A model generated the notes under the pieces. That model was not told the origin of the DNA. It saw only the letters and a program-made list of their open reading frames with translations, and did not search any database. Source: Heptranchias perlo (Eukaryota). Taken from it: DNA of 64,000 bases. The translations under genes and the position numbers were made by a program. Shown here piece after piece: positions 3,573 through 64,000 of this stretch. Each line of letters opens with the position of its first letter. The stretch's first letter is position 1. The DNA lies in NCBI RefSeq assembly GCF_035084215.1, contig NW_027139328.1, forward strand, positions 248,001-312,000, given 5' to 3'.

Positions 3573-6500
3573 ACAGTCCTGTATTATCAGTGCCCCCCCT
3601 TTCTCTGCTGTATTATCAGTGCCCCCCCTTTCTCTGTGCTGTATTATCAGTGCCCCCCCTTTCTCTGTCCTGTATTATCAGTGCCCCCCTTTCTCTGTGC
3701 TGTATTATCAGTGCCCCCCCTTTCTCTGCTGTATTATCAGTGCCCCCCCTTTCTCTGTGCTGTATTATCAGTGCCCCCCCTTTCTCTGTGCTGTATTATC
3801 AGTGCCCCCCCTTTCTCTGTGCTGTATTATCAGTGCCCCCCCTTTCTCAGTCCTGTATTATCAGTGCCCCCCCTTTCTCTGTCCTGTATTATCAGTGCCC
3901 CCCTTTCTCTGTCCTGTATTATCAGTGCCCCCCCTTTCTCTGTGCTGTATTATCAGTGCCCCCCCTTTCTCTGCTGTATTATCAGTGCCCCCCTTTCTCT
4001 GTCCTGTATTATCAGTGCCCCCCCTTTCTCTGTCCTGTATTATCAGTGCCCCCCCTTTCTCTGCTGTATTATCAGTGCCCCCCCTTTCTCTGTGCTGTAT
4101 TATCAGTGCCCCCCCTTTCTCTGTGCTGTATTATCAGTGCCCCCCCTTTCTCTGTGCTGTATTATCAGTGCCCCCCCTTTCTCTGTGCTGTATTATCAGT
4201 GCCCCCCCTTTCTCTGTGCTGTATTATCAGTGCCCCCCCTTTCTCTGTGCTGTATTATCAGTGCCCCCCCTTTCTCTGTCCTGTATTATCAGTGCCCCCC
4301 CTTTCTCAGTCCTGTATTATCAGTGCCCCCCTTTCTCTGTGCTGTATTATCAGTGCCCCCCCTTTCTCTGTGCTGTATTATCAGTGCCCCCCCTTTCTCT
4401 GTGCTGTATTATCAGTGCCCCCCTTTCTCTGTCCTGTATTATCAGTGCCCCCCCTTTCTCTGTGCTGTATTATCAGTGCCCCCCCTTTCTCAGTCCTGTA
4501 TTATCAGTGCCCCCCCTTTCTCTGTGCTGTATTATCAGTGCCCCCCCTTTCTCAGTCCTGTATTATCAGTGCCCCCCCTTTCTCTGTGCTGTATTATCAG
4601 TGCCCCCCCTTTCTCAGTCCTGTATTATCAGTGCCCCCCCTTTCTCTGTGCTGTATTATCAGTGCCCCCCCTTTCTCAGTCCTGTATTATCAGTGCCCCC
4701 CCTTTCTCTGTGCTGTATTATCAGTGCCCCCCCTTTCTCAGTCCTGTATTATCAGTGCCCCCCCTTTCTCTGTGCTGTATTATCAGTGCCCCCCCTTTCT
4801 CTGTGCTGTATTATCAGTGCCCCCCCTTTCCCTGTGCTGTATTAGCAGTGCCCCCCCTTTCTCAGTCCTGTATTATCAGTGCCCCCCCTTTCTCAGTCCT
4901 GTATTATCAGTGCCCCCCCTTTCTCTGTCCTGTATTATCAGTGCCCCCCTTTCTCTGTCCTGTATTATCAGTGCCCCCCTTTCCCTGTGCTGTATTATCA
5001 GTGCCCCCCCTTTCCTGTGCTGTATTATCAGTGCCCCCCCTTTCTCTGTCCTGTATTATCAGTGCCCCCCCTTTCTCTGTCCTGTATTATCAGTGCCCCC
5101 CCTTTCCCTGTGCTGTATTATCAGTGCCCCCCCCTTTCTCTGTCCTGTATTATCAGTGCCCCCCCCTTTCTCTGTCCTGTATTATCAGTGCCCCCCCCTT
5201 TCTCTGTCCTGTATTATCAGTGCCCCCCTTTCTCTGTCCTGTATTATCAGTGCCCCCCCCTTTCTCTGTCCTGTATTATCAGTGCCCCCCCCTTTCTCTG
5301 TCCTGTATTATCAGTGCCCCCCTTTCTCTGTCCTGTATTATCAGTGCCCCCCCCTTTCTCTGTCCTGTATTATCAGTGCCCCCCCTTTCCCTGTGCTGTA
5401 TTATCAGTGCCCCCCCCTTTCTCTGTCCTGTATTATCAGTGCCCCCCCCTTTCTCTGTCCTGTATTATCAGTGCCCCCCCCTTTCTCTGTGCTGTATTAT
5501 CAGTGCCCCCCCTTTCTCTGTGCTGTATTATCAGTGCCCCCCCTTTCCCTGTGCTGTATTATCAGTGCCCCCCCCTTTCTCTGTCCTGTATTATCAGTGC
5601 CCCCCCCTTTCTCTGTCCTGTATTATCAGTGCCCCCCCTTTCTCTGTCCTGTATTATCAGTGCCCCCCCTTTCTCTGTGCTGTATTATCAGTGCCCCCCC
5701 TTTCTCTGTGCTGTATTATCAGTGCCCCCCCTTTCTCTGTCCTGTATTATCAGTGCCCCCCCTTTCTCTGTCCTGTATTATCAGTGCCCCCCCCTTTCTC
5801 TGTGCTGTATTATCAGTGCCCCCCCTTTCTCTGTGCTGTATTATCAGTGCCCCCCCTTTCTCTGTCCTGTATTATCAGTGCCCCCCCCTTTCTCTGTGCT
5901 GTATTATCAGTGCCCCCCCTTTCTCTGTGCTGTATTATCAGTGCCCCCCCTTTCCCTGTGCTGTATTATCAGTGCCCCCCCTTTCTCTGTCCTGTATTAT
6001 CAGTGCCCCCCTTTCTCTGTGCTGTATTATCAGTGCCCCCCCTTTCTCTGTGCTGTATTATCAGTGCCCCCCCTTTCTCTGTGCTGTATTATCAGTGCCC
6101 CCCCTTTCTCTGTGCTGTATTATCAGTGCCCCCCCTTTCTCTGTCCTGTATTATCAGTGCCCCCCCTTTCTCTGTGCTGTATTATCAGTGCCCCCCCCTT
6201 TCTCAGTCCTGTATTATCAGTGCCCCCCCTTTCTCTGTGCTGTATTATCAGTGCCCCCCCTTTCTCTGTGCTGTATTATCAGTGCCCCCCTTTCTCTGTC
6301 CTGTATTATCAGTGCCCCCCCTTTCTCTGTCCTGTATTATCAGTGCCCCCCCTTTCTCTGTGCTGTATTATCAGTGCCCCCCCTTTCTCTGTGCTGTATT
6401 ATCAGTGCCCCCCCTTTCTCTGTGCTGTATTATCAGTGCCCCCCCTTTCCCTGTGCTGTATTATCAGTGCCCCCCCCTTTCTCTGTGCTGTATTATCAGT

Positions 6501-18500: not shown

Positions 18501-21500
18501 CCCCTTTCCCTGTGCTGTATTATCAGTGCCCCCCTTTCTCTGTCCTGTATTATCAGTGCCCCCCCTTTCTCTGTCCTGTATTATCAGTGCCCCCCCTTTC
18601 TCTGTCCTGTATTATCAGTGCCCCCCTTCTCTGTGCTGTATTATCAGTGCCCCCCCTTTCTCTGTCCTGTATTATCAGTGCCCCCCCTTCTCTGTGCTGT
18701 ATTATCAGTGCCCCCCCTTTCTCTGTGCTGTATTATCAGTGCCCCCCTTTCTCTGTGCTGTATTATCAGTGCCCCCCCTTTCTCTGTGCTGTATTATCAG
18801 TGCCCCCCCCCTTTCTCTGTGCTGTATTATCAGTGCCCCCCCTTTCTCTGTGCTGTATTATCAGTGCCCCCCTTTCTCTGTGCTGTATTATCAGTGCCCC
18901 CCCTTTCTCTGTGCTGTATTATCAGTGCCCCCCCTTTCTCTGTGCTGTATTATCAGTGCCCCCCCCCTTTCTCTGTCCTGTATTATCAGTGCCCCCCCTT
19001 TCTCTGTGCTGTATTATCAGTGCCCCCCTTTCTCTGTGCTGTATTATCAGTGCCCCCCCTTTCTCTGTGCTGTATTATCAGTGCCCCCCTTTCTCTGTGC
19101 TGTATTATCAGTGCCCCCCCTTTCCCTGTGCTGTATTATCAGTGCCCCCCCTTTCTCTGTGCTGTATTATCAGTGCCCCCCCCTTTCTCTGTGCTGTATT
19201 ATCAGTGCCCCCCCTTTCTCTGTCCTGTATTATCAGTGCCCCCCTTCTCTGTGCTGTATTATCAGTGCCCCCCCTTTCTCTGTGCTGTATTATCAGTGCC
19301 CCCCCCTTTCTCTGTGCTGTATTATCAGTGCCCCCCTTTCTCTGTGCTGTATTATCAGTGCCCCCCTTCTCTGTGCTGTATTATCAGTGCCCCCCCTTTC
19401 CCTGTGCTGTATTATCAGTGCCCCCCCTTTCTCTGTGCTGTATTATCAGTGCCCCCCCTTTCTCTGTCCTGTATTATCAGTGCCCCCCCTTCTCTGTGCT
19501 GTATTATCAGTGCCCCCCCTTTCTCTGTGCTGTATTATCAGTGCCCCCCCTTTCTCTGTCCTGTATTATCAGTGCCCCCCCTTTCTCTGTGCTGTATTAT
19601 CAGTGCCCCCCCTTTCTCTGTGCTGTATTATCAGTGCCCCCCGTTTCTCAGTGCTGTATTATCAGTGCCCCCCCTTTCCCCGTGCTGTATTATCAGTGCC
19701 CCCCCTTTCCCTGTGCTGTATTATCAGTGCCCCCCTTTCTCTGCTGTATTATCAGTGCCCCCCCTTTCTCTGTGCTGTATTATCAGTGCCCCCCCTCTCT
19801 CTGTGCTGTATTATCAGTGCCCCCCTTTCTCTGTGCTGTATTATCAGTGCCCCCCCTTTCTCTGTGCTGTATTATCAGTGCCCCCCCTTTCTCTGTCCTG
19901 TATTATCAGTGCCCCCCCTTTCTCTGTGCTGTATTATCAGTGCCCCCCCTTTCCCTGTGCTGTATTATCAGTGCCCCCCCCTTTCTCTGTGCTGTATTAT
20001 CAGTGCCCCCCCTTTCTCTGTGCTGTATTATCAGTGCCCCCCCTTTCTCTGTGCTGTATTATCAGTGCCCCCCCTTTCTCTGTGCTGTATTATCAGTGCC
20101 CCCCCTTTCTCTGTGCTGTATTATCAGTGCCCCCCCTTTCTCTGTCCTGTATTATCAGTGCCCCCCCCTTTCTCTGTGCTGTATTATCAGTGCCCCCCCT
20201 TTCTCTGTGCTGTATTATCAGTGCCCCCCCTTTCTCTGTCCTGTATTATCAGTGCCCCCCCCTTTCTCTGTGCTGTATTATCAGTGCCCCCCCTTTCTCT
20301 GTGCTGTATTATCAGTGCCCCCCCTTTCTCAGTCCTGTATTATCAGTGCCCCCCCCTTTCCCCGTGCTGTATGATCAGTGCCCCCCCTTTCTCTGTGCTG
20401 TATTATCAGTGCCCCCCTTTCTCTGTGCTGTATTATCAGTGCCCCCCCTTTCCCCGTGCTGTATGATCAGTGCCCCCCCTTTCTCTGTGCTGTATTATCA
20501 GTGCCCCCCCTTTCTCTGTCCTGTATTATCAGTGCCCCCCCTTTCTCTGTCCTGTATTATCAGTGCCCCCCCTTTCTCTGTGCTGTATTATCAGTGCCCC
20601 CCCTTTCTCTGTGCTGTATTATCAGTGCCCCCCCTTTCTCTGTCCTGTATTATCAGTGCCCCCCCTTTCTCTGTCCTGTATTATCAGTGCCCCCCCTTTC
20701 TCTGTGCTGTATTATCAGTGCCCCCCTTTCTCTGTGCTGTATTATCAGTGCCCCCCTTTCTCTGTGCTGTATTATCAGTGCCCCCCTTTCTCTGTGCTGT
20801 ATTATCAGTGCCCCCCCTTTCTCTGTCCTGTATTATCAGTGCCCCCCCTTTCTCTGTGCTGTATTATCAGTGCCCCCCCTTTCTCTGTCCTGTATTATCA
20901 GTGCCCCCCCTTTCTCTGTGCTGTATTATCAGTGCCCCCCTTTCTCTGTGCTGTATTATCAGTGCCCCCCCTTTCTCTGTGCTGTATTATCAGTGCCCCC
21001 CGTTTCTCAGTGCTGTATTATCAGTGCCCCCCCTTTCTCAGTGCTGTATTATCAGTGCCCCCCCTTTCCTTGTGCTGTATTATCAGTGCCCCCCCTTTCC
21101 CTGTGCTGTATTATCAGTGCCCCCCCTTTCTCTGCTGTATTATCAGTGCCCCCCCTTTCTCTGCTGTATTATCAGTGCCCCCCCTTTCTCTGCTGTATTA
21201 TCAGTGCCCCCCCTTTCTCTGTGCTGTATTATCAGTGCCCCCCCTTTCCCTGTGCTGTATTATCAGTGCCCCCCCTTTCTCTGCTGTATTATCAGTGCCC
21301 CCCCTTTCTCTGTGCTGTATTATCAGTGCCCCCCCTTTCTCTGTCCTGTATTATCAGTGCCCCCCCTTTCTCTGCTGTATTATCAGTGCTCCCCCCTATC
21401 TCTGTGCTGTATTATCAGTGCCCCCCCTTTCTCTGTGCTGTATTATCAGTGCCCCCCTTTCCCTGTCCTGTATTATCAGTGCCCCCCCTTTCTCAGTGCT

Positions 21501-21950
21501 GTATTATCAGTGCCCCCCCTTTCCTTGTGCTGTATTATCAGTGCCCCCCCTTTCCCTGTGCTGTATTATCAGTGCCCCCCTTTCTCTGCTGTATTATCAG
21601 TGCCCCCCCTTTCTCTGTGCTGTATTATCAGTGCCCCCCCTTTCCCTGTCCTGTATTATCAGTGCCCCCCCTTTCTCTGTCCTGTATTATCAGTGCCCCC
21701 CCTTTCTCTGCTGTATTATCAGTGCTCCCCCCTATCTCTGTGCTGTATTATCAGTGCCCCCCCTTTCCCTGTGCTGTATTATCAGTGCCCCCCCTTTCTC
21801 TGTGCTGTATTATCAGTGCCCCCCTTTCTCTGTGCTGTATTATCAGTGCCCCCCCTTTCTCTGTGCTGTATTATCAGTGCCCCCCCTTTCTCTGTGCTGT
21901 ATTATCAGTGCCCCCCCTTTCTCTGTGCTGTATTATCAGTGCCCCCTTTT
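3573..21950. repeat. Giant minisatellite, ~31 bp unit (CTGTATTATCAGTGCCCCCCCTTTCTCTGTG), roughly 600 copies
   Basis: Uninterrupted 18.4-kb tandem array; variation is in C-run length and a few variant positions. Confidence 0.99.
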
Positions 21951-42800: not shown

Positions 42801-43715
42801 TGAATTCCCCTCCATTAATATGTAGAGCAGAGCGTTTACCCCAATGTTACATCAGGAGCAGGTTTTGTGAAGTCGGTGAACAGCGTTCCCAATAATACAA
42901 CAGGGACTTCCTGTCCTTCCATTCTCTGGTCCTTTTCCCATTTTTTCCTTGTGATATTTTGTCTTGTATCTCAGACTGCTCTCATCAGTGATCCCCAGCT
43001 CCTTCCACCCTTGACGGTGTTTACACTGCTCTTGTATTGAGGGAAGTTTCATCGAGTGCCCAGGATAATGAACAGAAAGCCCTTTCTCTTTTGCTTTAGC
43101 TGTTGCTCCAATCCCGTGTCCCATCAGACCCTCCTTGTCTTTGAGAAGTGACAGATTGACACTGCACTGGGGCCAACTGAGAAAGACATTTATTGCTGGA
43201 CAAGGACATCAGTCAGTGAAACCTGACATTTTTACAGCAGCTTTTCACCTCTCTGGATTAAACACGTTTTTAATCCCCAGTATAATTAACCCTTTATTTG
43301 TTCTCTCGATGAGGGGTTTCTAAATCTGGGGAGAGTACGGCAAATCCTGAATTGTGCTGCCTGGTCAGACATTGTGCAGCACAAATCCATCAAAGCTGAG
43401 AGTTGGAGAGAGGAAGGTGTAGAGTAAATGGAGCAGTGATTCCAGGCCCATCTCCCAGTACCGGGCAATCTGAGACCGTTCCGATTGCTGATTCCCCTCT
43501 CTCATGACCCCTTGATCCAGGTGCTTTCGTGCAACGTTTGAAGCCACAACAGGAGAAGTGGAGCAAAAGTGGCAGAAAATAAATATTGATTAAAAATGGG
43601 AGATTGAACCGAAAGTAACAGGAAAGGAAGAGATTGAAATCAGAGAGGTTCAGCACTCTGAGGAAAAGTGGACATTTTATTTGAAAGGTGAAAGTTCAGT
43701 GAATGTGACCCTCAA

Positions 43716-46550: not shown

Positions 46551-46859
46551 ACGGTTCAGGATATTTGGACAGTTTATTTTTACACCGACACAAACTCTCT
46601 GGGACTCCTTTGGCCGGAGTTTGCTGATTCACAGGCTGCTTTCATTCTGATTGGGCACAAACTGACTGTCCAACCAATCAATATGGAGGTGACTGAGTGA
46701 CCAGGAACATCTACTGGTTTAATCCAATCAGTGAGGAGGTGACTGAGTGACCAGGGACATCTCCTGGTTTAATACAATCAGCACAGGGACAGAGGAGACC
46801 GTCTCCTGGAAAAGGATTTCCCACAAACTGCTCATCCCAGCCTGTCGAGGGAAGCAGCA

Positions 46860-46908
46860 ATGATTGGACTGATAGTTCTGGTCGTTCTGTGTGGAGGGGT
46901 CTCTGCAG
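46860..46908 (+). CDS. UAA: MHC class I heavy chain exon 1 (signal peptide MIGLIVLVVLCGGVSA)
   Basis: ATG at 46860, hydrophobic 16-aa leader, phase-1 donor G|GTGAGT; joins exon 2 as G-SHSLRY. Confidence 0.88.
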
Positions 46909-47547
46909 GTGAGTAATGGGGTCTGAGAGGGGCTCAGTGCCAGGCTGGGTATTGGGGCATTAACCCTCGGTCAGTGGGTAATGGGGTCTGAGAGGGGCTC
47001 AGTGCCAGGCTGGGTATTGGGGCATTAACCCTCGGTCAGTGGGTAATGGGGTCTGAGAGGGGCTCAGTGCCAGGCTGGGTATTGGGGCATTAACCCTCGG
47101 TCAGTGGGTAATGGGGTCTGAGAGGGGCTCAGTGCCAGGCTGGGTATTGGGGCATTAACCCTCGGTCAGTGGGTAATGGGGTCTGAGAGGGGCTCAGTGC
47201 CAGGCTGGGTATTGGGGCATTAACCCTCGGTCAGTGAGTAATGGGGTCTGAGAGGGGCTCAGTGCCAGGCTGGGTATTGGGGCATTAACCCTCGGTCAGT
47301 GGGTAATGGGGTCTGAGAGGGGCTCAGTGCCAGGCTGGGTATTGGGGCATTAACCCTCGGTCAGTGAGTAATGGGGTCTGAGAGGGACTCAGTGCCAGGC
47401 TGGGTATTGGGGCATTAACCCTCGGTCAGTGGGTAATGGGGTCTGAGAGGGGCTCAGTGCCAGGCTGGGTATTGGGGCATTAACCCTCGGTCAGTGGGTA
47501 TTGGTGTCTGAGAGGGACTCAGTGCCAGGCTGGGTATTGGGGCATTA
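46909..47547. repeat. Minisatellite, 65 bp unit starting exactly at the intron-1 donor, ~10 copies
   Basis: Unit GTG(A/G)GTAATGGGGTCTGAGAGGGGCTCAGTGCCAGGCTGGGTATTGGGGCATTAACCCTCGGTCA. Confidence 0.97.
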
Positions 47548-47639
47548 AGAGACCGGGTTGGGGAGCGGGGAGCTGGAGAGAGAGAGAGACGTACAGGGGC
47601 ACAGGGCTGGAGAGTGGGAGTGGAGAGAGCAGCATCGCA

Positions 47640-49415
47640 GGCCATTCAGCCCCTCGAGCCTGTTCCTCCATTCAATTGGATCAAGGCTGATCTGTACCAC
47701 AACTCCATTTTCCCCCTTTGCTCCATATCCCTTGATGTCCTGACCCAACAAAAATCGATCAATCTCAGTTTTGAAAGCTCCAGTGAACCCCCAGAATGCT
47801 CAGCCTTTTGGGGGAGAGAGTTCCAGATTCCCACCACCCTTTGTGTGAAGAAATGCTTCCTGGTTTCACCCCTGAACGGCCTGGCTCGAATTTTAAGATT
47901 CCGTCCTCTTGTTCTTGTCTCCCCGACTGGACGAAGTAGTTTCTCCGTATCTACCCTATCAAATCCTTTTAACATTTTAAACACCCTCGATCAGATCACC
48001 CCTCAATCTTCTAAACTCGAGAGAATACAAGCCTAGTCTGTACAACCTGTCCTCGTAATTTAACCCTTTTAGCCCCGGGATCATTCTGGTGAATCTGGGC
48101 TGCACCCCCTCCAAGGCCAATCTATCCTTCCTGAGGTGCGGTGCCCAGAACTGAACACAGTCTCCAGATGTGGTCTGACCAGAGCTCTGCACAGCTGGAA
48201 CATAACTTCCTCCCCTTTGTATTCCAGCCCCCGAGATAAAGGCCAACGTTCCATTAGCCTTTCCCAATCCTTTTTGTATCTCTCCACTGGCTTTTAATGA
48301 TTTCTGTACTTGGACTCCCAAATCTCTCTGTTCCTCTCCAGTTCCTAGTTTCTCACCGTGTAGAAAATACTCTGATTTATCTTTCTTAGGTCTAAAGTCG
48401 ATGACCTCACACTTTCCCACATTGAACTCCATTTGCCACAGTTTTGCCCACTCACTTAATCTGTCTCTGTCCCTTCACAACTCCCTGCTCCCGTCTACAC
48501 TATTTCCTGTCCCTCCTAATTTAGTGTCGTCAGTAAACTTGGATATCCAGCTCTCTATTCTTCATCCAAGTCATGACCAGTACAGATCCCTGGGGGACAC
48601 CACTGGTCACCTCCTGCCAATCAGAGGACATCCCCTTTCTCCCCACTCTCTGTCTCCAACCTCCCAGCCAATGTTCAACCCAGGTCTAAATGGTGAGAAG
48701 CTGGGAACTGGGTGAGCAGAGAGATTTAGGGGTCTAAGTACAGAAATCACTAAAAGGTCGTAGACAGGTACGGAAAATAATTAAAAAGGCTAATGGAACG
48801 TTGGTCTTTATCTCGGGGGCTGGAATACAAAGGGGAGGAAGTTATGTTCCAGCTGTGCAGAGCTCTGGTCAGACCACATCTGGAGACTGTGTTCAGTTCT
48901 GGGCACCGCACCTCAGGAAGGATAGATTGGCCTTGGAGGGGGTGCAGCCCAGATTCACCAGAATGATCCCGGGGTTTAAAGGGTTAAATTACGAGGACAG
49001 GTTGTACAGACTAGGCTTGTATTCCCTCGAGTTTAGAAGATTAAGGGGTGATCTAATTGAGGTGTTTAAAATGATTAAAGGATTTGATAGGGTAGATCGA
49101 GAGAAACTATTTCCTCTGGTTGGGGAGTCCAGAACAAGGGGGCATAACCTTAAAATTCGAGCTCGGCCGTTCAGGGTGATGTCAGGAAGCATTTCTTCAC
49201 ACAAAGGGGAGTGGAAATCTGGAACTCTCTCCCCCAAAAAGCTGTTGAGACTGGGGGTCAATTGAAAATGACAAAACTGAGATTGATCGATTTTTGTCAG
49301 ACACGGGTATTAAGGGTTACGGAACCAAGGCGGGAGATGGAGTTAAGATACAGATCAGCCATGATTGAATGATGGAACAGGCTCGAGGGGCTGAATGGCC
49401 TCCTCCTGTTCCTAT
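47640..49415. mobile_element. Inverted pair of CR1 3' regions (minus ~47640-48680; plus ~48685-49415)
   Basis: ORFs 47977..48432(-) and 48801..49265(+) share the same frameshifted peptide. Confidence 0.9.
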
Positions 49416-49419
49416 GCTC

Positions 49420-50160
49420 CTAAAAGACTGCCTCCAATTCCATGCGCTCTCATTTTTGGAAACAGTCTCTTGTGTGGAACCTCATCGAATGCCTCTGGAA
49501 GTCCATCGAAATAACATCCATCGACACTCCCTTATCGACATTATGAGTGAGCTCCTCAAAATATTCAACTAGATTATTCACACAATTCACCCTTAACAAA
49601 TCCATGGCTCTCTCCGATCAGCTCATACTTGTTCAAGTGCTCACTCACTCTGTCCCTAATGACAGATTCGAGTAGCTTCCCCACAACTAACGTTAAACTG
49701 ACTCCCTCGAACTCCAGCCTTTCTGTTCTGCTCCTCCCCCCTTGGACTGCCTCCTGCTCCATGGTGCCTTGGTGAACATTGTGACTGTCCCTCCCCCAGC
49801 CTTTCTCCTTACCCCCACAGGTAGCAAGTACATCGTACCTGTTGGACAGGACCAGACTCTGCGGACCCTCCTTCCCTGCCTCCACTAGATTCCCCAACCC
49901 TGCTGACTGTCAGTCACACTCTCCTCTTCCTGTACCTGTACCTCTCGACTTGGTGGGACTGAGTTCTGGAGTAAACTATCCAGATATTCCTCCCCCTCCC
50001 TCATGTGTCAGAGAGTCTCGAACTCGCACTCCAGCTCAACGACTCTGAGCCGGAGTGAGTCAAGGCAGAGACATTTCCTGTAGTGTGACAATCCGGGACA
50101 GTCTCACTGTCCACAAACTCCCACATACTGCAGTCCCAACACACTGACTATGCTGACATT
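49420..50160 (-). mobile_element. Deleted/degenerate CR1 (ORF1 and RT fragments)
   Basis: LSNRYDVLA..., VSLTLVVGKLLESVIRD and ..HGFVKG motifs. Confidence 0.7.
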
Positions 50161-50390
50161 TCTATTCTATATTTATTTCCCTATTTAATGATTATATAGC
50201 AGTTATTTATATATCTCCAGTGCCAACTGAATCCCCATAAATGGTCATTCACTTTCCTCTAACACTCAGCTCAGAAATTTCACCCTATTGGGTCAATTTA
50301 AAGTTGATGGATTGCTTTTTACCCGTGTATTGTACGTGTTATTTTAAGATAATTAGTCCTGTAATCAAATATAATCAACTATATATACCC

Positions 50391-50946
50391 CTGTCAGGGG
50401 GTGTGTTACCCCAGGCCCCTCTCCCTCAGTCTGTCAGTGGGTGTGTTACCCCAGGCCCCTCTCCCTCAGTCTGTCAGTGGGTGTGTTACCCCAGGCCCCT
50501 CTCCCTCAATCTGTCAGGGGGTGTGTTACCCCAGGCCCCTCTCCCTCAGTCTGTCAGGGGGTGTGTTACCCCAGGCCCCTCTCCCTCAGTCTGTCAGGGG
50601 GTGTGTTACCCCAGGCCCCTCTCCCTCAGTCTGTCAGTGGGTGTGTTACCCCAGGCCCCTCTCCCTCAATCTGTCAGGGGGTGTGTTACCCCAGGCCCCT
50701 CTCCCTCAGTCTGTCAGGGGGTGTGTTACTCCAGGCCCCTCTCCCTCAGTCTGTCAGTGGGTGTGTTACCCCAGGCCCCTCTCCCTCAGTCTGTCAGGGT
50801 GGGTGTTACCCCAGGCCCCTCTCCCTCAGTCTGTCAGGGGGGGTGTTACCCCAGGCCCCTCTCCCTCTGTCTGTCAGTGGGTGTGTTACCCCAGGCCCCT
50901 CTCCCTCAGTCTGTCAGGGGGGGTGTTACCCCAGGCCCCTCTCCCT
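50391..50946. repeat. Minisatellite, 40 bp unit (CTGTCAGGGGGTGTGTTACCCCAGGCCCCTCTCCCTCAGT), 14 copies
   Basis: Direct tandem array. Confidence 0.97.
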
Positions 50947-51009
50947 CTTGTATTGGGGTTTATTTACAGGGGATCTGTGTTGGTTTGGATTTGTTTGGGG
51001 ATTTGGCAT

Positions 51010-51900
51010 GTGTTTGGGGTTCATGCCCTGATCTCTCTCTCTCTGGGGTTGGTGTTTTGGGGTTCATGCCCTGATCTCTCTCTCTCTCTGGGGTTGATGT
51101 TTTGGGGTTAATACCCTGATCTTCCTCTCTGTGGGGTTGGTGTTTTTGCGGTTCATGCCCTGATCTCTCTCTCGGGTTGGTGTTTTGGGGTTCATGCCCT
51201 GATCTCTCTCTCTCGGGTTGGTGTTTTGGGGTTCTTGCCCTGATCTCTCTCTCGGGTTGGTGTTTTGCGGTTCATGCCCTGTTCTCTCTCTCTCTCTCTC
51301 TCTCTCTCGGGTTGGTGTTTTGGGGTTCATGCCCTGATCTCTCTCTCTCTCTGGGGTTGTTGTTTTGGGGTTCATGCCCTGATCTCTCTCTCTCTGGGGT
51401 TGGTGTTTTGGGGTTCATGCCCTGATCTCTCTCTCTCTCTGGGGTTGTTGTTTTGGGGTTCATGCCCTGATCGCTCTCTGGGGTTGGTGTTTTGGGGTTC
51501 ATGCCCTGATCTCTCTCTCTGGGGTTGGTGTTTTGGGGTTCATGCCCTGATCTCTCTCTCTCTGGGGTTGGTGTTTTGGGGTTCATTCCCTGATCTCTCT
51601 CTCTGGGGTTGGTGTTTTAGGGTTCATGCCCTGATCTCTCTCTCTATGGGGTTGGTGTTTTGGGGTTCATGCCCTGATCTCTCTCTCTCTCTGGGGTTGG
51701 TGTTTTGGGGTTCATGCCCTGATCTCTCTCTCTGGGGTTGGTGTTTTGGGGTTCATGCCCTGATCTCTCTCTCTGGGGTTGGTGTTTTGGGGTTCATGCC
51801 CTGATCTCTCTCTCTGGGGTTGGTGTTTTGGGGTTCATTCCCTGATCTCTCTCTCTGGGGTTGGTGTTTTGGGGTTCATGCCCTGATCTCTCTCTCTCTG
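51010..51900. repeat. Minisatellite, ~38-50 bp unit (GGGGTTCATGCCCTGAT(CT)nGGGGTTGGTGTTTT), ending at the exon-2 acceptor
   Basis: About 21 units; the last unit runs into TGTGTTTCAG|. Confidence 0.95.
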
Positions 51901-51908
51901 TGTTTCAG

Positions 51909-52169
51909 GCTCTCACTCTCTCCGGTATTTCTTTACCTCAATGACCCCGATCCCTGGTTTTCCGGAGTTTGTTGTTGTCGGTTATGTGGACGAGGCCCAG
52001 TTTGTTGAATATAACAGCGAGCGGAGGACGATGATCCCGCGGCAGCGCTGGATGGAGGAGCGTGAGGGGCCCGAGTACTGGGAACGGGAGACACGGGCTG
52101 TGCAGAGCTCGGAACAGATCGGGAAAGATGCGATTGAGATCCTCTGGAAACGGACCAACCAATCGGGCA
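51909..52169 (+). CDS. UAA: MHC class I exon 2 (alpha1 domain)
   Basis: TTTCAG| acceptor; GSHSLRYFFTSMTPIPGFPEFVVVGYVDEAQF...GPEYWERET...LWKRTNQSG; 261 bp; donor A|GTGAGT. Confidence 0.96.
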
Positions 52170-52882
52170 GTGAGTCTTCGGCCTCATCCGGGGCTCGGGG
52201 TCGGTCCCCCCGCCCCCCCCCCGTGAGCGAGCAGCCATTCGGGAGTGTCCTTACACCGGCCGGTACTCCACCCCCACCCCGAAACACACTCTAAATCATC
52301 AACAGCGTTCCCGGCGCCGATCCCCGGTGAACGCGGCGTTCCCGGCGCCGATCCCCGGTGAACGCGGCGTTCCCGGCGCCGATCCCCGGTGAACACAGTG
52401 GGGGAAATGTTCGATCGGGGCCGTTTTTGGGCGCGGGCAGCGTGATGGGCTATTACCCCGGGCCCAATGACCCCGGCGCAGGCAGGACGTGAGTTTGGAC
52501 CCACCGGGGCACTTTCCTGCAATCAGCGTTCCATCCCAGGCCTCGCACCTGGAATCAATGCAATTCACACCTTCCAACACCAGGGGGAGCGCCATCTCTT
52601 AAAGGGAGGATGTTTCTTAGAAATCTCTTAAAGGGAGCTGGTACCTGTTCTTTGCTGAAAATAACAGTCTCCTGTCCGCATGGAGTCTGAACGGAGATCA
52701 GATATCGCACACGTAAAACACAGATGCAGGTCCCATCCCTATGTTTACACAATGATGAGTTATGTTAAAACATTGAATAAAGGTTGTGCACTACTGAATC
52801 CCACATCCTCCAATCTGCACACCAGACCTCACCGATCTGCCGATCTGAGTTGGTACCAGGCCTGTGAGAGTGCATGCACCAA

Positions 52883-53998
52883 GGTGAACACAGCGTTCCC
52901 GGCACTGATCCCCGGTGAGCACAGCGTTCCCGGCGCTGATCCCCGGTGAGCACAGCGTTCCCGGCGCTGATCCCCGGTGAGCACAGCGTTCCCGGCGCTG
53001 ATCCCCGGTGAGCACAGCGTTCCCGGCGCTGATCCCCGGTGAGCACAGCGTTCCCGGCGCTGATCCCAGGTGAACACAGCGTTCCCGGCGCTGATCCCCG
53101 GTGAGCACAGCGTTCCCGGCGCTGATCCCCGGTGACCACAGCGTTCCCGGCGCTGATCCCAGGTGAGCACAGCGTTCCTGGCGCTGATCCCCGGTGAACA
53201 CAGCGTTCCCGGCGCTGATCCCAGGTGAGCACAGCGTTCCCGGCGCTGATCCCAGGTGAGCACAGCGTTCCCGGCGCTGATCCCCGGTGAACACAGCGTT
53301 CCCGGCGCTGATCCCCGGTGAGCACAGCGTTCCCGGCGCTGATCCCCGGTGAGCACAGCGTTCCCGGCGCTGATCCCCGGTGAGCACAGCGTTCCCGGCG
53401 CTGATCCCCGGTGAACACAGCGTTCCCGGCGCTGATCCCCGGTGAACACAGCGTTCCCGGCGCTGATCCCCGGTGAGCACAGCGTTCCCGGCGCTGATCC
53501 CAGGTGAACACAGCGTTCCCGGCGCTGATCCCCGGTGAGCACAGCGTTCCCGGCGCTGATCCCAGGTGAACACAGCGTTCCCGGCGCTGATCCCAGGTGA
53601 GCACAGCGTTCCTGGCGCTGATCCCCGGTGACCACAGCGTTCCCGGCGCTGATCCCAGGTGAGCACAGCGTTCCCGGCGCTGATCCCCGGTGAACACAGC
53701 GTTCCCGGCGCTGATCCCAGGTGAGCACAGCGTTCCCGGCGCTGATCCCAGGTGAGCACAGCGTTCCCGGCGCTGATCCCCGGTGAACACAGCGTTCCCG
53801 GCGCTGATCCCCGGTGAGCACAGCGTTCCTGGCGCTGATCCCCGGTGAGCACAGCGTTCCCGGCGCTGATCCCCGGTGAGCACAGCGTTCCTCGGCGCTG
53901 ATCCCCGGTGAGCACAGCGTTCCCGGCGCTGATCCCCGGTGAGCACAGCGTTCCCGGCGCTGATCCCCGGTGAGCACAGCGTTCCCGGCACTGATCCC
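52883..53998. repeat. CpG-rich minisatellite, 31 bp unit (GCACAGCGTTCCCGGCGCTGATCCCCGGTGA), ~36 copies; 3 detached copies at 52300-52398
   Basis: Direct tandem array. Confidence 0.97.
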
Positions 53999-54175
53999 TG
54001 TTGGACGACACTTCCCACTTCCTGCCAGTCTGAGAAACTTCCCTTAACTCTGACCCTCTGTTTTCTGTTCTGTCGCCATCTTTTAATCCATTCTGCTCTC
54101 TGACCCCTGACCCCACGCACCCTGACTTCTCACGAGTCTCTCACATGGCACCTTATCCGAGGCCTCCTGAAAGTC
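53990..54175 (-). mobile_element. Degenerate CR1 RT fragment
   Basis: ..WIKRWRQNRKQRVRVKGSFSDWQEVGSVVQQGSV.. Confidence 0.8.
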
Positions 54176-54304
54176 CCTCAGGCCGATTCTAACCTGCCCG
54201 CCCTGGGGAAACCGGGCAGGTCAAATGGCCAATGGGACTCGCCCTCCCTGATCTCACTGCCCTCACGGGTCACCATCTTAACCCGCTATTCTGAGCAGGC
54301 GAGA

Positions 54305-55065
54305 GGGTCCGGGGGGTCCTTTAAATACACTGATCGGGGTCCGGGGGGTCCTTTAAATACACAGATCAGGGTCCGGGGGTCCTTTAAATACACAGATCGG
54401 TGTCGGGGGGGGGGTCCTTTTAAATACACAGATCGGGGTCCGGGGGTCCTTTAAATACACAGATCAGAGTCCGGGGGTCCTTTAAATACACAGATCGGGG
54501 TCCGGGGGTCCTTTAAATACCCTGATCGGGGTCCGGGGGGTCCTTTAAATACACAGATCAGGGTCCGGGGGTCCTTTAAATACACAGATCGGGGTCCGGG
54601 GATCCTTTTAACACACAGATCGGTGTCCGGGGGTCCTTTAAATACACAGATCGGTGTCCGGGGGTCCTTTAAATACACAGATCGGGGTCCGGGGGTCCTT
54701 TAAATACACAGATCAGAGTCCGGGGGTCCTTTAAATACACAGATCGGGGTCCGGGGGTCCTTTAAATACCCTGATCGGGGTCCGGGGGGTCCTTTAAATA
54801 CACAGATCAGGGTCCGGGGGTCCTTTAAATACACAGATCGGGGTCCGGGGATCCTTTTAATACACAGATCGGTGTCCGGGGGTCCTTTAAATACACAGAT
54901 CGGGGTCCGGGGATCCTTTAAATACACAGATCGGTGTCCGGGGGTCCTTTAAATACACAGATCGGTGTCCGGGGGTCCTTTAAATACACAGATCGGTGTC
55001 CAGGGGTCCTTTAAATACATAGATGGGGGGTTGGAGGTCCCTTTAAGCACACAGATCAGGGTCCG
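54305..55065. repeat. Minisatellite, ~31 bp unit (GGGTCCTTTAAATACACAGATCGGGGTCCGG), ~24 copies
   Basis: Direct tandem array with an internal ~249-bp duplication (ORFs 54451..54678 and 54700..54927 are near-identical). Confidence 0.96.
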
Positions 55066-55494
55066 ATAATTGATTAGAGGGGGGTCCAGGGGACAGTGGT
55101 TGTCCGAGGGAGGAGGGGTTTGGGGAGCAGGGGCGGGGTCCGAGTGGGGGTGTGAGGGTGGTCCGGGGCAAGGGGGCGAGGGTGGTCCGGAGGAGGGAAG
55201 GTCCAGGGGTGGCGGGGTCGGGGGGAGGCGGAGTCTGGAGGGAGGTGGAGTCTGGGGGGGTATGAGGGCGGTCTGTGGGAGGGGCGAGGGTGGTCTGGGG
55301 GAGGCGGGGTCTGGGGGAGGGTGGTCTGGGGGTGTGTGATGGCGATCCAGGGGAGGGTGGGGTCCAGGGGGGAGGGTGGGGTCCAGGGGGGAGGGGTTCC
55401 GGGGTCTGGGGGTTGAAGGATCACTCCTTCACTCTGACCCCTGACCCTGGGCGGGGGGTGTGGGTCTGACTGACCCCCTGTGTTTGATTGACAG

Positions 55495-55767
55495 GAATCC
55501 ACACGGTCCAGATGATGTACGGCTGTGAGCTGGGGGATGATGGGACCACGAGAGGATTCGTTCAGTTCGCCTGGGACGGGGAGGATTTGATCAACTTCGA
55601 TAAGGATCAGATGGTGTGGGTAACACCGGTACAGTGGGGAGAGATCACCAAGAACAAGTGGGACCAGAACAAGGCCAGGAACCAAGGGGTGAAGGGATAC
55701 CTGGAGGGGACCTGCATCGAGTGGCTGAGGAAATACCTCGAGTACGGAAAGAGGGAACTGAGGGCCG
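55495..55767 (+). CDS. UAA: MHC class I exon 3 (alpha2 domain)
   Basis: GACAG| acceptor; IHTVQMMYGCEL...AWDGEDLINFD...EITKNKWD...GYLEGTCIEWLRKYLEYG; 273 bp; donor G|GTGAGT. Confidence 0.97.
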
Positions 55768-56428
55768 GTGAGTGAGGGGGGAATGAGAGTCGGTGAGTGA
55801 GGGGGGAGTGAGAGTCGGTGAGTGAGGGGGGGACTGAGAGTCGGTGAGTGAGGGGGGGACTGAGAGTCGGTGAGTGAGGGGGGGAGTGAGAGTCGGTGAG
55901 TGAGGGGGGAGTGAGAGTCGGTGAGTGAGGGGGGGGAGTGAGAGTCGGTGAGTGAGGGGGGGGAGTGAGAGTCAGTGAGTGAGGGGGGAGTGAGAGTCGG
56001 TGAGTGAGGGGGGAGTGAGAGTCGGTGAGTGAGGGGGGGACTGAGAGTCGGTGAGTGAGGGGGGGAGCGAGAGTCGGTGAGTGAGGGGGGGACTGAGAGT
56101 CGGTGAGTGAGGGAGGGGGAGTGAGAGTCAGTGAGTGAGGGGGGAGTGAGAGTCGGTGAGTGAGGGGGGAGTGAGAGTCGGTGAGTGAGGGGGGGGAGTG
56201 AGAGTCGGTGAGTGAGGGGGGGGAGTGAGAGTCGGTGAGTGAGGGGGGGAGTGAGAGTCGGTGAGTGAGGGGGGGAGTGAGAGTCGGTGAGTGAGGGGGG
56301 GAGTGAGAGTCGGTGAGTGAGGGGGGGAGTGAGAGTCGGTGAGTGAGGGGGGGAGCGAGAGTCGGTGAGTGAGGGGGGAGTGAGAGTCGGGGAGTGAGGG
56401 GGGAGTGAGTCTGTGAGTGAGGGGGGGA
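55768..56428. repeat. Minisatellite, 25-27 bp unit (GTGAGTGAGGGGGGAGTGAGAGTCG) starting at the intron-3 donor, ~25 copies
   Basis: Direct tandem array. Confidence 0.96.
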
Positions 56429-56430
56429 AT

Positions 56431-56635
56431 GGGGTCTAATCCCCAGTTTAAAGGGGTTTGTCCCGTTCCCTGGGGTCTAATCCCCAGTTTAAAGGGGTTT
56501 GTCCCGTTCCCTGGGGTCTAATCCCCAGTTTAAAGGGGTTTGTACCGTTCCCTGGGGTCTAATCCCCAGTTTAAAGGGGTTTGTCCCGTTCCCAGGGGTC
56601 TAATCCCCAGTTTAAAGGGGTTTGTACCGTTCCCT
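56431..56635. repeat. Minisatellite, 41 bp unit (GGGGTCTAATCCCCAGTTTAAAGGGGTTTGTCCCGTTCCCT), 5 copies
   Basis: Direct tandem array. Confidence 0.96.
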
Positions 56636-56674
56636 GTCTCACACTGACTCGGCTCTGATCTGTTTTACTCTCAG

Positions 56675-56950
56675 TTACTCCCCAAGTGTTTCTTTCTGTG
56701 GACAAGGCCTCAGACACTAAACCGGCCCAACTCTCCTGCCTGGTCACGGGGTTTTACCCTCGAGATATCGAACTCACCCTCCTGAGAAATGGACGGCCGA
56801 TCTCAGACACTGATTCCACTGGCATCCTGCCCAACCACGATGGCACCTACCAGATCAAGAGATGGGTTGAGATCGGGCCCGAGGACGGAGCCACCTACTC
56901 CTGTCAGGTGGATCACAGCAGCAAAGCAGGAGTGGAGACCCGAGACTGGG
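56675..56950 (+). CDS. UAA: MHC class I exon 4 (alpha3 C1-set Ig domain)
   Basis: CTCTCAG| acceptor; LSCLVTGFYPRDI...LPNHDGTYQ...YSCQVDHSS...DW; 276 bp; donor G|GTAAGA. Confidence 0.96.
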
Positions 56951-60342: not shown

Positions 60343-60431
60343 TGATGTGGAGATGCCGGTGATGGACTGGGGTGGACAAATGTAAGGAATCTTACAACAC
60401 CAGGTTATAGTCCAACAAATTTATTTTAAAA

Positions 60432-60468
60432 TCACAAGCTTTCGGAGATTATCCCCTTCGTCAGATGA
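60432..60468 (-). ncRNA. Minimal type I hammerhead ribozyme (PLE type), minus-strand copy
   Basis: Exact reverse complement of 61027-61063. Confidence 0.75.
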
Positions 60469-61026
60469 ATGAGTGAAAAGGTTCTCAAATCGCATATCTT
60501 ATACTATGCTGGGACAGCATCACACCAATCAAAAGGTGTCGTTGTTATTCAAACATGGCAGTCACGGAGAACAGCACGTCCCAGTACACTGGATATACAT
60601 TGTGTCAATTACACAGACAGGCAGAAAGAAACCCAAAATGGCAGAGAGAGAGAGAGAATATTAAAAAACATAATTTTTTTCCCCCTTTTTGCTGGTGGGG
60701 TTACGTGTAGCGTGACATGAACCCAAGATCCCAGTTGAGGCCATCCTCATGGGTGCGGAACCGGGATCTTGGGTTCATGTCACGCTACACGTAACCCCAC
60801 CAGCAAAAAGGGGGAAAAAAATTATGTTTTTTAATATTCTCTCTCTCTCTCTGCCATTTTGGGTTTCTTTCTGCCTGTCTGTGTAATTGACACAATGTAT
60901 ATCCAGTGTACTGGGACGTGCTGTTCTCCGTGACTGGCCTGTTTGAATAACAACGACACCTTTTGATTGGTGTGATGCTGTCCCAGCATAGTATAAGATA
61001 TGCGATTTGAGAACCTTTTCACTCAT

Positions 61027-61063
61027 TCATCTGACGAAGGGGATAATCTCCGAAAGCTTGTGA
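61027..61063 (+). ncRNA. Minimal type I hammerhead ribozyme (PLE type)
   Basis: UCAU-CUGACGA-A-GGGG AUAAU CUCC-GAA-AGCU-U-GUGA: core CUGAnGA/GAAA, stem II GGGG/CUCC, palindromic AGCU stem III, stem I UCAU/GUGA. Confidence 0.78.
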
Positions 61064-61112
61064 TTTTAAAATAAATTTGTTGGACTATAACCTGGTGTTG
61101 TAAGATTCCTTA

Positions 61113-64000
61113 CATAGAATCATAGAATCATAGAAGTTACAACATGGAAACAGGCCCTTCGGCCCAACATGTTCATGTCGCCCAGTTTATACCACTAAGC
61201 TAGTCCCAATTGCCTGCACTTGGCCCATATCCCTCTATACCCATCTTACCCATGTAACTGTCCAAATGCTTTTTAAAAGACAAAATTGTACCCGCCTCTA
61301 CTACTGCCTCTGGCAGCTCGTTCCAGACACTCACCACCCTTTGAGTGAAAAAATTGCCCCTCTGGACCCTTTTGTATCTCTCCCCTCTCACCTTAAATCT
61401 ATGCCCCCTCGTTATAGACTCCCCTACCTTTGGGAAAAGATTTTGACTATCGACCTTATCTGTGCCCCTCATTATTTTATAGACTTCTATAAGATCACCC
61501 CTTAACCTCCTACTCTCCAGGGAAAAAAGTCCCAGTCTGTCTAACCTCTCCCTGTAAGTCAAACCATCAAGTCCCGGTAGCATCCTAGTAAATCTTTTCT
61601 GCACTCTACCAGCCTTGCCCTTCACTTTATAAGGAATGTGCTTACCCTGAACCCTGGTTAACACACTTTTGAAAGCCTCCCACTTACCAGACGTCCCTTT
61701 GCCTGCCAACAGACTCTCCCAATCAACTTCTGAAAGTTCCTGTCTAATACCATCAAAATTGGCCTTTCCCCAATTTAGAATTTTAACTTTTGGGCCAGAC
61801 CTATCCTTCTCCATAGCTATCTTAAAACTAATGGAATTATGATCACTTGTCCCAAAGTGATCCCTCACCAACACTTCTGTCACCTGCCCTTCCTTATTTC
61901 CCAAGAGGAGGTCAAGTTTTGCCCCCTCTCTAGTCGGGCCATCCACATACTGAATGAGAAATTCCTCCTGAATACACTCAACAAATTTCTCTCCATCCAA
62001 GCCCCTAATGCTATGGCTGTCCCAGTCAATGTTGGGAAAGTTAAAGTCCCCTACTATTACCACCCTATTTTTCTTGCAGCAGTCTGTAATCTCCTTACAT
62101 ATTTGCTCCTCAATTTCCCGTTGACTATTTGGGGGTCTGTAGTACAATCCTATCAAAGTGATCTCTCCCTTCTTATTTTTCAGTTCTACCCATATGGACT
62201 CAGTGGGCGAACCCTCGGATATATCCCCTCTCACTACCGCCGTGATGTTCTCCCTAATCAAGAACGCAACTCCCCCTCCTCTCTTACCTCCTGCTCTATC
62301 TTTCCTATAGCATCTGTACCCTGGAACATTGAGCTGCCAGTCCTGCCCCTCCCTCATCCATGTTTCAGTAATAGCTATAACATCCCAGTCCCATGTACCC
62401 ATCCATGCCCTGAGTTCATCTGCCTTGCCCATCAGACTTCTTGCATTGAAATAAATGCAGTTTAATCTAGACTTCCCTTGGTCTTTGCCCTGCTTTCTCA
62501 GACCATCTGTCCGGTCATGTTCTGTACACTCTCCCTTACTGCCTTTTGTTTCTGTCACCATTTTATTTCCCACTGACTTCCTGCATCGGTTCCCATCCCC
62601 CTGCCACATTAGTTTAAACCCTCCCCAACAGCACTGGCAAACACTCCCCCTAGGACATTGGTTCCAGTCCTGCCCAGATGCAGACCGTCCAATTTGTACT
62701 GGTCCCACCTCCCCCAGAACCGGTTCCAATGGCCCAGGAATTTGAATCCCTCCCTCTTGCACCATCTCTCAAGCCACGTATTCATCTTAGCTATCCTGTC
62801 ATTCCTACTCTGACTAACCCGTGGCACTGGTAGCAATCCTGAGATTACTACCTTTGAGGTCCTACTCTTTAGTTTAATTCCTAACTCCCTAAATTCAGCT
62901 TGTGGGACCTCATCCTGTTTTTTACCTATATCGTTGGTGCCTATACGCACCACGACAACTGGCTGTTCACCCTCCCCCTCCAGAATGTCCTGCAGCCGCT
63001 CCGAGACATCCTTGACCCTTGCACCAGGGAGGCAACATACCATCCTGGAGTCTCGGTTGCGTCCGCAGAAACGCCTGTCTATTCCCCTTACAATCGAGTC
63101 CCCTATCACTATAGCTCTGCCACTCTTTTTCCTGCCCTCCTGTGCAGCAGAGCCAGCCACGGTGCCATGAACCTGGCCACTGCCACCTTCCCCTGGTGAG
63201 CCATCTCCCCCAACAGTATCCAAAACGGTATACCTGTTTTGGAGGGAGATGACCGCAGGGGACCCCTGCACTGCCTTCCTACTCTTCCTCTGTCTGTTGG
63301 TCACCCATTCACTATCTCCCTCAGTAATTTTTATCTGCGGTGTGACCAACTCACTGAACGTGCTATCCACGACTTTCTCAGCATCGCGGATGCTCCAAAG
63401 TGAGTCCATCCGCAGCTCCAGAGCCGTCAAGCGGTCAAACAATAGCTGCAGCTGGACACACTTCCCGCAGGTGAAGGAATCAGGGATACAGGAAGGAGCC
63501 CTGAATTCCCACATCCCACAAGAGGAACATGACACGGCTCTGGGATCTCCTGCCATGACTTAACCCTTAAGTTAGCTTAACAACAACTGCAATGTCAAGA
63601 GAAAAAAAAGGAAAGAAAAACTACTTACCACTCCCTTTAAGGAGTTTACTCCTTTAAATTGTTCTCAATTTAGAGAATGTTAACTACACTAGGGACCTTG
63701 ATTCACTAAAAAATAAACGCTACTTCCTATAAGACCTGCAGACCTTCCCTTTCCTTTTACTTCAGTTACTGTCGATAAGTAGAAATACTCACCTGAACCT
63801 ACTCACCAATCAGGTGCCTCCCCTGTGTCGCGTCCCGATCTGATTCCTGACGTCACTTCGAACTCGGTCGCAGCTCCGCTCGGCTCCTCTCAGCTGTTCT
63901 CAGCGCTCTGAAATCCCGCCTTTTATCGGACGCTCCCTCAAATTAAATGAATCCCACCAATTTCACTTCAATTAAAAAGGTATACTCAAGGGCCCTTGCT
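61113..64000 (-). mobile_element. CR1 LINE with intact ORF1 and an ORF2 lacking the RT domain
   Basis: (CATAGAAT)n tail; ORF 61200..62765 joins EN directly to the C-terminal domain; ORF1 62609..63556; 5'UTR runs toward the window end. Confidence 0.92.
62609..63556 (-). CDS. CR1 ORF1p (zinc-finger plus SGNH esterase-like), 315 aa
   Basis: CSSC..CGKC, VIGDSIVRG, IGTND and DGLHL motifs. Confidence 0.88.
   Translation of the reverse strand: MAGDPRAVSCSSCGMWEFRAPSCIPDSFTCGKCVQLQLLFDRLTALELRMDSLWSIRDAEKVVDSTFSELVTPQIKITEGDSEWVTNRQRKSRKAVQGSPAVISLQNRYTVLDTVGGDGSPGEGGSGQVHGTVAGSAAQEGRKKSGRAIVIGDSIVRGIDRRFCGRNRDSRMVCCLPGARVKDVSERLQDILEGEGEQPVVVVRIGTNDIGKKQDEVPQAEFRELGIKLKSRTSKVVISGLLPVPRVSQSRNDRIAKMNTWLERWCKREGFKFLGHWNRFWGRWDQYKLDGLHLGRTGTNVLGGVFASAVGEGLN

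What the first reader, a model, noticed from the sequence alone, without database searches (positions are those of the whole stretch)
46909..56674. Splice signals of the MHC gene are themselves amplified into minisatellites
Seen: four different arrays abut exon boundaries and each unit contains the adjacent type of splice signal (intron-1 donor, intron-1 branch point/pyrimidine tract, intron-3 donor, intron-3 branch/AG-like). Intron 3 is almost entirely such arrays. Inference: a mutational bias for slippage at exon edges, or VNTR 'splice-signal arrays' that tune splicing or promote exon-wise recombination of the polymorphic alpha1/alpha2 exons. I do not know of a description of this as a system.
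Basis: partly seen in the sequence, partly recalled or inferred. Interest (0 to 1): 0.72.

Follow-up and report, generated by a model that had tools for sequence, protein, structure and literature searches.

The report
Splice-site minisatellites in shark MHC gene
A shark immune (MHC class I) gene has short tandem repeats that copy some of its own splice signals, but its assembled transcripts are joined at the normal sites, neighbouring and unrelated genes carry the same kind of repeat, and human genes with this oddity are known, so it is most likely a tolerated by-product of a repeat-crowded region rather than a control system.

Summary
The arrays are real. In this TAP1-linked shark class I gene, a 26-mer spans the exon 3 donor, a 65-mer starts on the exon 1 donor, and an almost AG-free 41-43-mer ends 8 nt before exon 2. 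The fourth array stops 38 nt short of exon 4 and lacks the real acceptor. The contig is 69% tandem array; TAP1, COL4A, a myosin and a kinase gene show the same anatomy. In a blind set outside the MHC core, arrays on splice sites were not enriched (3 of 173 donors, 4.1 expected; 1 of 183 acceptors, 4.6 expected). In the MHC core, donors show a 2- to 8-fold excess depending on the null. RNA-like contigs join exons 1-2-3-4 at the first donors and true acceptors, and any decoy donor meets a stop within three codons. Copy number ranges from 10 to over 300; one array is missing in 2 of 9 copies. Exons 1, 4 and 5 are near-identical across copies, but exchange looks like patchwork inside exon 3, not exon-wise. 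Human F7 and ABCA7 are close precedents, and this scan noted the pattern before on other DNA of this genome.

The parts
46860..46908 (+). MHC class I exon 1 (leader)
   Evidence: joined to exon 2 in RNA-like contigs
46909..47548 (+). 65-bp minisatellite x9.8 starting on donor 1; downstream units are weak donors
   Evidence: absent in 2 of 9 copies with exon 1
50391..50947 (+). 40-bp minisatellite x13.9 inside intron 1, about 960 nt before exon 2, with 19 acceptor-like positions (up to 4.2 bits); not at an exon edge
51013..51900 (+). 41-43-bp minisatellite x20.8; last unit holds the likely branch point and the pyrimidine tract of acceptor 1; 1 AG in 891 nt
51909..52169 (+). exon 2 (alpha-1)
52883..53998 (+). 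31-bp minisatellite x36 deep in intron 2 with donor look-alikes (7 units at 6.6 bits, 17 at 4.1); not at an exon edge
54305..55065 (+). 31-bp minisatellite x24 in intron 2; no donor look-alike
55440..55494 (+). branch-point region of acceptor 2; a 32-bp unit that is single here and amplified x12 in copies on C1438 and C1057
55495..55767 (+). exon 3 (alpha-2)
55750..56428 (+). 25-28-bp minisatellite x26 amplified from the exon 3 / intron 3 junction; 21 strong pseudo-donors
56430..56636 (+). 41-bp minisatellite x5 ending 38 nt before exon 4; does not hold the real acceptor
56675..56950 (+). exon 4 (alpha-3); 0-1 base differences among 9 copies

Best explanation
These are variable-number minisatellites in a classical-type shark MHC class I gene; three overlap real splice signals, and they are likely neutral by-products that the spliceosome ignores. 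The region makes arrays at a very high rate (69% of the contig). Seeds likely arise throughout the introns, including at junctions (inferred). A junction array would survive only when harmless (inferred). On the donor side, the first donor is used (shown at contig level), as in human F7, and any slip would be removed by a stop within three codons (stop shown; decay inferred). On the acceptor side, the units here lack AG, so the real AG remains the first after the last branch point (AG loss shown; selection inferred). Exons and signals likely act as walls that arrays crowd against, which fits the excess of array ends 11-50 nt from splice sites. A moderate extra tendency for donors to seed or keep arrays in the MHC core is possible but unproven.
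For: C1161 is 68.6% array over 332 kb, with 55 merged arrays; 88 of 157 control regions have none. The same anatomy occurs in TAP1 (donors of exons 8, 9 and 10; acceptors of exons 3 and 5), COL4A on C6, a myosin on C976, a kinase on C34 and a protease on C45. Outside the core there is no enrichment on the sites: 3 of 173 donors against 4.1, and 1 of 183 acceptors against 4.6. There is an excess at 11-50 nt: 6 against 2.7 and 8 against 3.1. RNA-like contigs join exon 3 to exon 4 at the first donor (8 contigs each in X1 and X3); depth past it is 0-4.2 against about 1e5 in the exon. Exon 1 joins exon 2 at the first donor. Both donors read through to a stop within three codons. The donor-3 array has 10 to over 310 units, the donor-1 array is absent in 2 of 9 copies, and the acceptor-2 array has 1 against 12 units. 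Precedent: F7 IVS7 (PMC1557585, abstract and Discussion read).
Against: Core donors are hit more often than either null predicts. Within 50 nt, 9 of 18 are hit, against about 1.1 expected or 4.1 with interspersed repeats masked (P 0.01). TAP genes alone, chosen by linkage, give 7 of 13 against 0.9. The 26-mer keeps G|GT in most units of all 11 stretches. Contigs drop rare forms, pool all copies and cannot see NMD-degraded RNA; RNA status is a guess by the tool, and 16 plus 6 loose-end rows were not shown. In ABCA7, such an array does change splicing with length (PMC5954066, passages). The near-identical 3' half of the gene begins exactly at the donor-3 array. TAP1's exon-3 acceptor array keeps an AG in every unit, so AG loss is not a general rule.
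Confidence: 0.68

Rival explanations
1. Donor sites in the MHC core seed or retain minisatellites more often than other intron DNA, through a mutational or survival bias, with no function.
For: 5 of 18 core donors are overlapped, against 0.6 or 2.35; 9 of 18 lie within 50 nt, against 1.1 or 4.1. A TAP2-like array looks like a decayed junction copy. A fifth signal region, before acceptor 2, was amplified independently in two copies.
Against: No excess in 173 donors and 183 acceptors outside the core, including 62 and 68 in array-rich regions. The core sample is small, includes the gene picked for the pattern, and gives P 0.075 under the masked null. Core acceptors show no excess (2 against 2.1).
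Confidence: 0.3
2. The arrays on either side of the exon 2-3 block serve as exchange points that keep the promoter, exon 1 and exons 4-5 identical among class I copies while the peptide-binding block stays diverse.
For: Exon 1 differs by 0-2 bases, exon 4 by 0-1 and exon 5 by 0-1 among 7-9 copies. Exon 2 is 75-93% and exon 3 89-96% identical to the window's copy. The 26-mer begins exactly at the border, and all copies share it and the intron-1 3' array.
Against: The arrays abut the exons, so an array border cannot be told from an exon border. Selection on exons 2-3 plus conversion elsewhere gives the same picture: a stork class II pair shows it in Table 1 of PMC5314415 (passages). Exchange is patchwork inside exon 3 (0.42 against 0.39). 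Fish alpha-1/alpha-2 shuffling is credited to a long intron 2 (PMC6523485, passages), and donor 2 has no junction array here. TAP1 has the same arrays with no polymorphic block.
Confidence: 0.12
3. Array length tunes class I output by diverting some transcripts to decoy donors and decay, as proposed for ABCA7.
For: 21 decoys score above the median real donor (4.3 against 3.3 bits, n=66). Copy number varies more than 30-fold. ABCA7 uses its second-unit donor and skips an exon as length rises (PMC5954066, passages).
Against: No decoy join appears among the rows shown, and depth past the first donor is 0-4.2. The 65-mer units are poor donors. No new protein can result. F7 pseudo-sites stay silent (PMC1557585).
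Confidence: 0.07

Closest known systems
Human F7 intron 7 37-bp VNTR (PMC1557585; abstract and Discussion read)
   Same: The first unit spans the exon-intron junction, tandem pseudo-donors follow, and only the most upstream donor is used.
   Different: F7 has 5-9 identical sites. Here there are 10 to over 300 slightly weaker ones, several signals in one gene are affected, and acceptor-side arrays occur too.
Human ABCA7 intron 18 25-bp VNTR (PMC5954066; passages read)
   Same: The array starts at the donor GT, as the 65-mer does; 12-427 units; use of a later unit is out of frame.
   Different: A length-dependent splicing effect is shown there. None was seen or testable here.
Tandem-repeat-rich small chromosomes and chromosome ends of sharks (PMC10620051, abstract and passages; 10.1101/2025.06.08.657570, passages)
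   Same: GC-rich compartments with high simple tandem repeat content.
   Different: Neither main text contains the word 'splice', so neither addresses splice-site position.
Intron-2 recombination of teleost classical class I (PMC6523485; passages read)
   Same: Diverse alpha-1/alpha-2 exons with signs of exchange between sequences.
   Different: There, whole domains are swapped across a long intron 2. Here exchange looks patchy within exon 3, and the junction arrays flank the exon 2-3 block instead of separating it.

Membership tests
Junction-spanning donor VNTR (F7 IVS7 type) | First unit spans or starts at the authentic donor | tested here: met
   26-mer: 12 of 15 exon bases plus 7 intron bases match. 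65-mer starts on the GT.
Junction-spanning donor VNTR (F7 IVS7 type) | Downstream units carry credible pseudo-donors | tested here: met
   Met for the 26-mer (21 units at 4.3 bits); not met for the 65-mer (none above 1.5) (matrix from recalled vertebrate frequencies).
Junction-spanning donor VNTR (F7 IVS7 type) | Variable copy number | tested here: met
   10 to over 310 units among 11 stretches of G000; alleles and paralogues not separated.
Junction-spanning donor VNTR (F7 IVS7 type) | Only the most upstream donor is used | tested here: met
   At contig level only, pooled over copies.
Junction-spanning donor VNTR (F7 IVS7 type) | Pseudo-donors become active when the first is lost | not testable with these tools
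   Needs a minigene.
Splicing-regulating VNTR (ABCA7 type) | Use of a second-unit donor | tested here: inconclusive
   None among the rows shown; contigs drop rare forms and NMD would hide it.
Splicing-regulating VNTR (ABCA7 type) | Isoform ratios change with array length | not testable with these tools
   Needs allele-resolved RNA.
[quoted passage not shown]
   PF00129 and C1-set hits; TAP1 on the same contig.
Classical MHC class I | Conserved peptide-terminus residues (Y7, Y59, R84, T143, K146, W147, Y159, Y171; list recalled) | tested here: met
   Read by eye from the translation; no formal alignment.
Classical MHC class I | Allelic polymorphism at one locus | tested here: inconclusive
   Copies differ in exons 2-3, but haplotypes and paralogues cannot be told apart in this assembly.

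The most novel reading that the evidence does not exclude
In the shark MHC core, splice donors seed minisatellites several times more often than other intron DNA, and the arrays bracketing exons 2-3 act as exchange points that keep the promoter, leader and alpha-3/membrane exons identical across at least nine class I copies while the peptide-binding block stays diverse.
Probability: 0.1. Interest if true: 0.68.

Novelty: new member of a known kind. Interest (0 to 1): 0.3.

Why it matters
As it stands, this is a large natural example of first-donor choice: a class I gene family carries 10 to over 300 decoy donors, and only first-donor joins were seen. It also warns annotators and aligners about shark MHC contigs. 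If the donor excess in the MHC core held up in a full test, it would point to an undescribed link between splice junctions and minisatellite birth or survival. If the arrays proved to be exchange points, they would explain how several class I copies share one promoter and one alpha-3 exon while their grooves differ.

Tried and rejected
An assembly or exon-calling artefact was rejected: the frame is open, the arrays recur in 10 other stretches, and contigs join at the called sites. MHC class I specificity was rejected. In the five stretches of distant class I lineages inspected, arrays lay 120 nt or more from the matched exons. New isoforms from decoy donors were rejected because of immediate stops. 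Exon-wise alpha-1/alpha-2 shuffling was not seen among 7 copies and 62 informative sites; recurrent mutation could also raise incompatibility. A class II beta search found nothing, which is uninformative. No RNA holder was on record as RNA. Rows left out of the enrichment test: single-exon hits, likely duplicate haplotigs (L051-L055, L063, L064, L076, L083, L102, L103, L226), multi-domain Sushi exons (L022, L027, L029, L038), 19 of the 30 kinase loci L131-L160, L227, 6 of 24 collagen loci, and junctions with weak protein support. Sites from single HMM hits were placed by a weight matrix; the L095 donors look mis-called, which would add up to 2 events at 11-50 nt. Literature: nine searches listed no genome-wide test of minisatellite starts at splice sites and no description of these shark arrays. 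The library lacks most subscription papers, and no supplements were opened. PMC10078293 (passages) catalogues human splicing-linked repeats and credits protein binding or branch-point spacing. CBS and IFI6 precedents are recalled or come from a scan note, and were not read.
Full report
Gene. The stretch holds exons 1-4 of an MHC class I gene on the + strand (46860-46908, 51909-52169, 55495-55767, 56675-56950), with one open 286-aa frame. Exon 5 lies just beyond the window. The closest named proteins are shark class I chains, 82-92% identical over exon 3 for the Heptranchias entries. The window lies on G000:C1161, which also carries TAP1, so this is a classical-type locus.

Observation. Three of the four arrays overlap real signals. 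The 65-mer starts on donor 1. The 41-43-mer ends 8 nt before exon 2, and its last unit holds the likely branch point and pyrimidine tract. The 26-mer is an amplified exon 3/intron 3 junction, matching 12 of the last 15 exon bases. The fourth ends 38 nt before exon 4 and lacks the real acceptor. Intron 3 is 96% array, and introns 1 and 2 are 42% and 59%. With a weight matrix built from recalled vertebrate frequencies, 21 units of the 26-mer score 4.3 bits (real site 5.8; median of 66 mapped donors 3.3). No 65-mer unit reaches 1.5 (real site 8.3), and the intron-1 3' array has 1 AG in 891 nt. Three further arrays lie deep in the introns; one has donor look-alikes up to 6.6 bits, 713 nt from exon 2.

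Other copies. A family search listed 43 class I exon matches. I read 10 close stretches besides the window. The donor-3 array has 10 to over 310 units. The donor-1 array is deleted in 2 of 9 copies with exon 1. A 32-mer over the acceptor-2 branch region is x12 in two copies and single in the window. Exons 2 and 3 are open in all 10 copies that have both. Whether each copy is expressed was not tested.

Local background. Of 332 kb of C1161, 68.6% is tandem array, in 55 merged arrays. TAP1 shows the same anatomy. Arrays span the donors of exons 9 and 10, start at +4 of the exon 8 donor, copy the exon 3 acceptor and hold the pyrimidine tract of exon 5. Outside the MHC, I saw a donor-spanning 34-mer in a COL4A gene (lead from note e1-9902702), a donor-spanning 56-mer in a myosin, an acceptor-spanning 31-mer in a kinase and a branch-point 42-mer in a protease. 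High tandem repeat content of small shark chromosomes is published (PMC10620051, abstract and passages).

Enrichment test. I scored 191 donors and 199 acceptors in 157 regions chosen by protein family or position, not by repeats; the rows left out are listed under Tried and rejected. The null used each region's own array density after collapsing arrays to one unit. Outside the MHC core, arrays overlapping or starting within 10 nt were not enriched: 3 of 173 donors (4.1 expected) and 1 of 183 acceptors (4.6). Ends at 11-50 nt were in excess: 6 against 2.7 (P 0.05) and 8 against 3.1 (P 0.013). In the core (this gene, TAP1 and a TAP2-like gene), 5 of 18 donors were overlapped against 0.6, and 9 of 18 lay within 50 nt against about 1.1. 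Masking interspersed repeats, which removes 67-77% of collapsed intron and is probably too strict, raises the expectations to 2.35 (P 0.075) and 4.1 (P 0.01); acceptors then show no excess, 2 against 2.1 and 5 against 3.7. Arrays therefore crowd up to exons in array-rich regions, and a donor-specific excess in the core is possible but unsettled.

Splicing. Four runs per call were laid as Logan contigs, from two samples and two studies; RNA status is the tool's guess. Exon 3 continues directly into exon 4 after 55767 in 8 contigs each of X1 and X3. Summed depth beyond the first donor is 0 in X1, X2 and X5, and at most 4.2 in X3, against about 1e5 in the exon for X1 and X3. Exon 2 joins exon 3 at the called acceptor in all four runs. 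Exon 1 joins exon 2 at the first donor in X1 (1 contig) and X3 (4 contigs). Contigs pool all copies, drop rare forms and cannot show decayed RNA, and 16 and 6 loose-end rows were not shown. Reading past either first donor meets a stop within three codons, so decoy use could only lower output.

Recombination. Exon 1 differs by 0-2 bases, exon 4 by 0-1 and exon 5 by 0-1 among 7-9 copies, while exons 2 and 3 are 75-93% and 89-96% identical to the window's copy, and intron 2 differs in structure. The 3' border of the diverse block is the donor-3 array. However, array and exon borders coincide, a stork class II pair shows a similar profile (PMC5314415, Table 1 passage), and among 7 copies incompatible site pairs are 0.16 within exon 2, 0.42 within exon 3 and 0.39 between them. 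This points to patchy exchange or recurrent change, not exon-wise swaps at the arrays.

Mechanism. Shown: the anatomy, copy-number range, dispensability of one array at DNA level, first-donor joins, immediate stops, AG scarcity, and the same anatomy in unrelated genes. Inferred: a high regional birth rate, filtering by selection on splicing, first-donor choice as in F7 (PMC1557585) and decay of rare slips.

Known systems and verdict. F7 is the direct model, and ABCA7 shows that such an array can affect splicing (PMC5954066, passages). Nine literature searches listed no genome-wide test and no account of these shark arrays; the library is incomplete and no supplements were read. Earlier notes of this scan report the same thing at other loci of this genome. 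It is a new member of a known kind, unusual in scale and density, with no evidence of a function.

Noticed in passing
G000:C1161 21335-21572 (L207): The TAP1 exon 10 donor lies in a 57-bp junction array whose unit is 19 codons and open for at least one unit; the public model P0068 ends in it. This is the one case where decoy use could lengthen a protein.
   Followed up: partly
G000:C1161 87530-87724 and G000:C1057 about 43016-43204: A TAP1 exon and the matching exon of a TAP2-like gene are about 92% identical in protein and are followed by the same 35-36-bp array, suggesting conversion between the two genes.
   Followed up: partly
G000:C1050, C1057, C1161, C526: At least nine class I copies share an exon 4 with 0-1 base differences and a 97-98% identical promoter, while exon 2 differs by up to 25%.
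   Followed up: partly
window 46674-46800 and copies: A 50-bp promoter unit with CCAAT-like boxes is x2 here and x8 in one copy. A 43-bp unit ending about 66 nt before the ATG is amplified x23-84 in 7 other copies but is not an array in the window.
   Followed up: no
G000:C1161 39399-87529, 151616-218077; window 3579-21946: Very long minisatellites of 48 kb (inside a TAP1 intron), 66 kb and 18 kb.
   Followed up: no
C1654 and C1050b, first units after donor 3: The nearest decoy donors have GT changed to AT (two in C1654, one in C1050b), but not in the window or most other copies.
   Followed up: partly
window about 60375-61115: An inverted duplication of about 370 bp with almost no spacer inside intron 4, seen by eye.
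   Followed up: no
P0003 (longest contig has the length of C1438): This public model joins alpha-1/alpha-2 exons of this lineage to a different alpha-3 and tail; it may be a true chimera or an annotation join across the long array.
   Followed up: no
window 168-898: C2H2 zinc-finger tandem (84-bp period) on the + strand, followed by 44-bp and 31-bp arrays.
   Followed up: no
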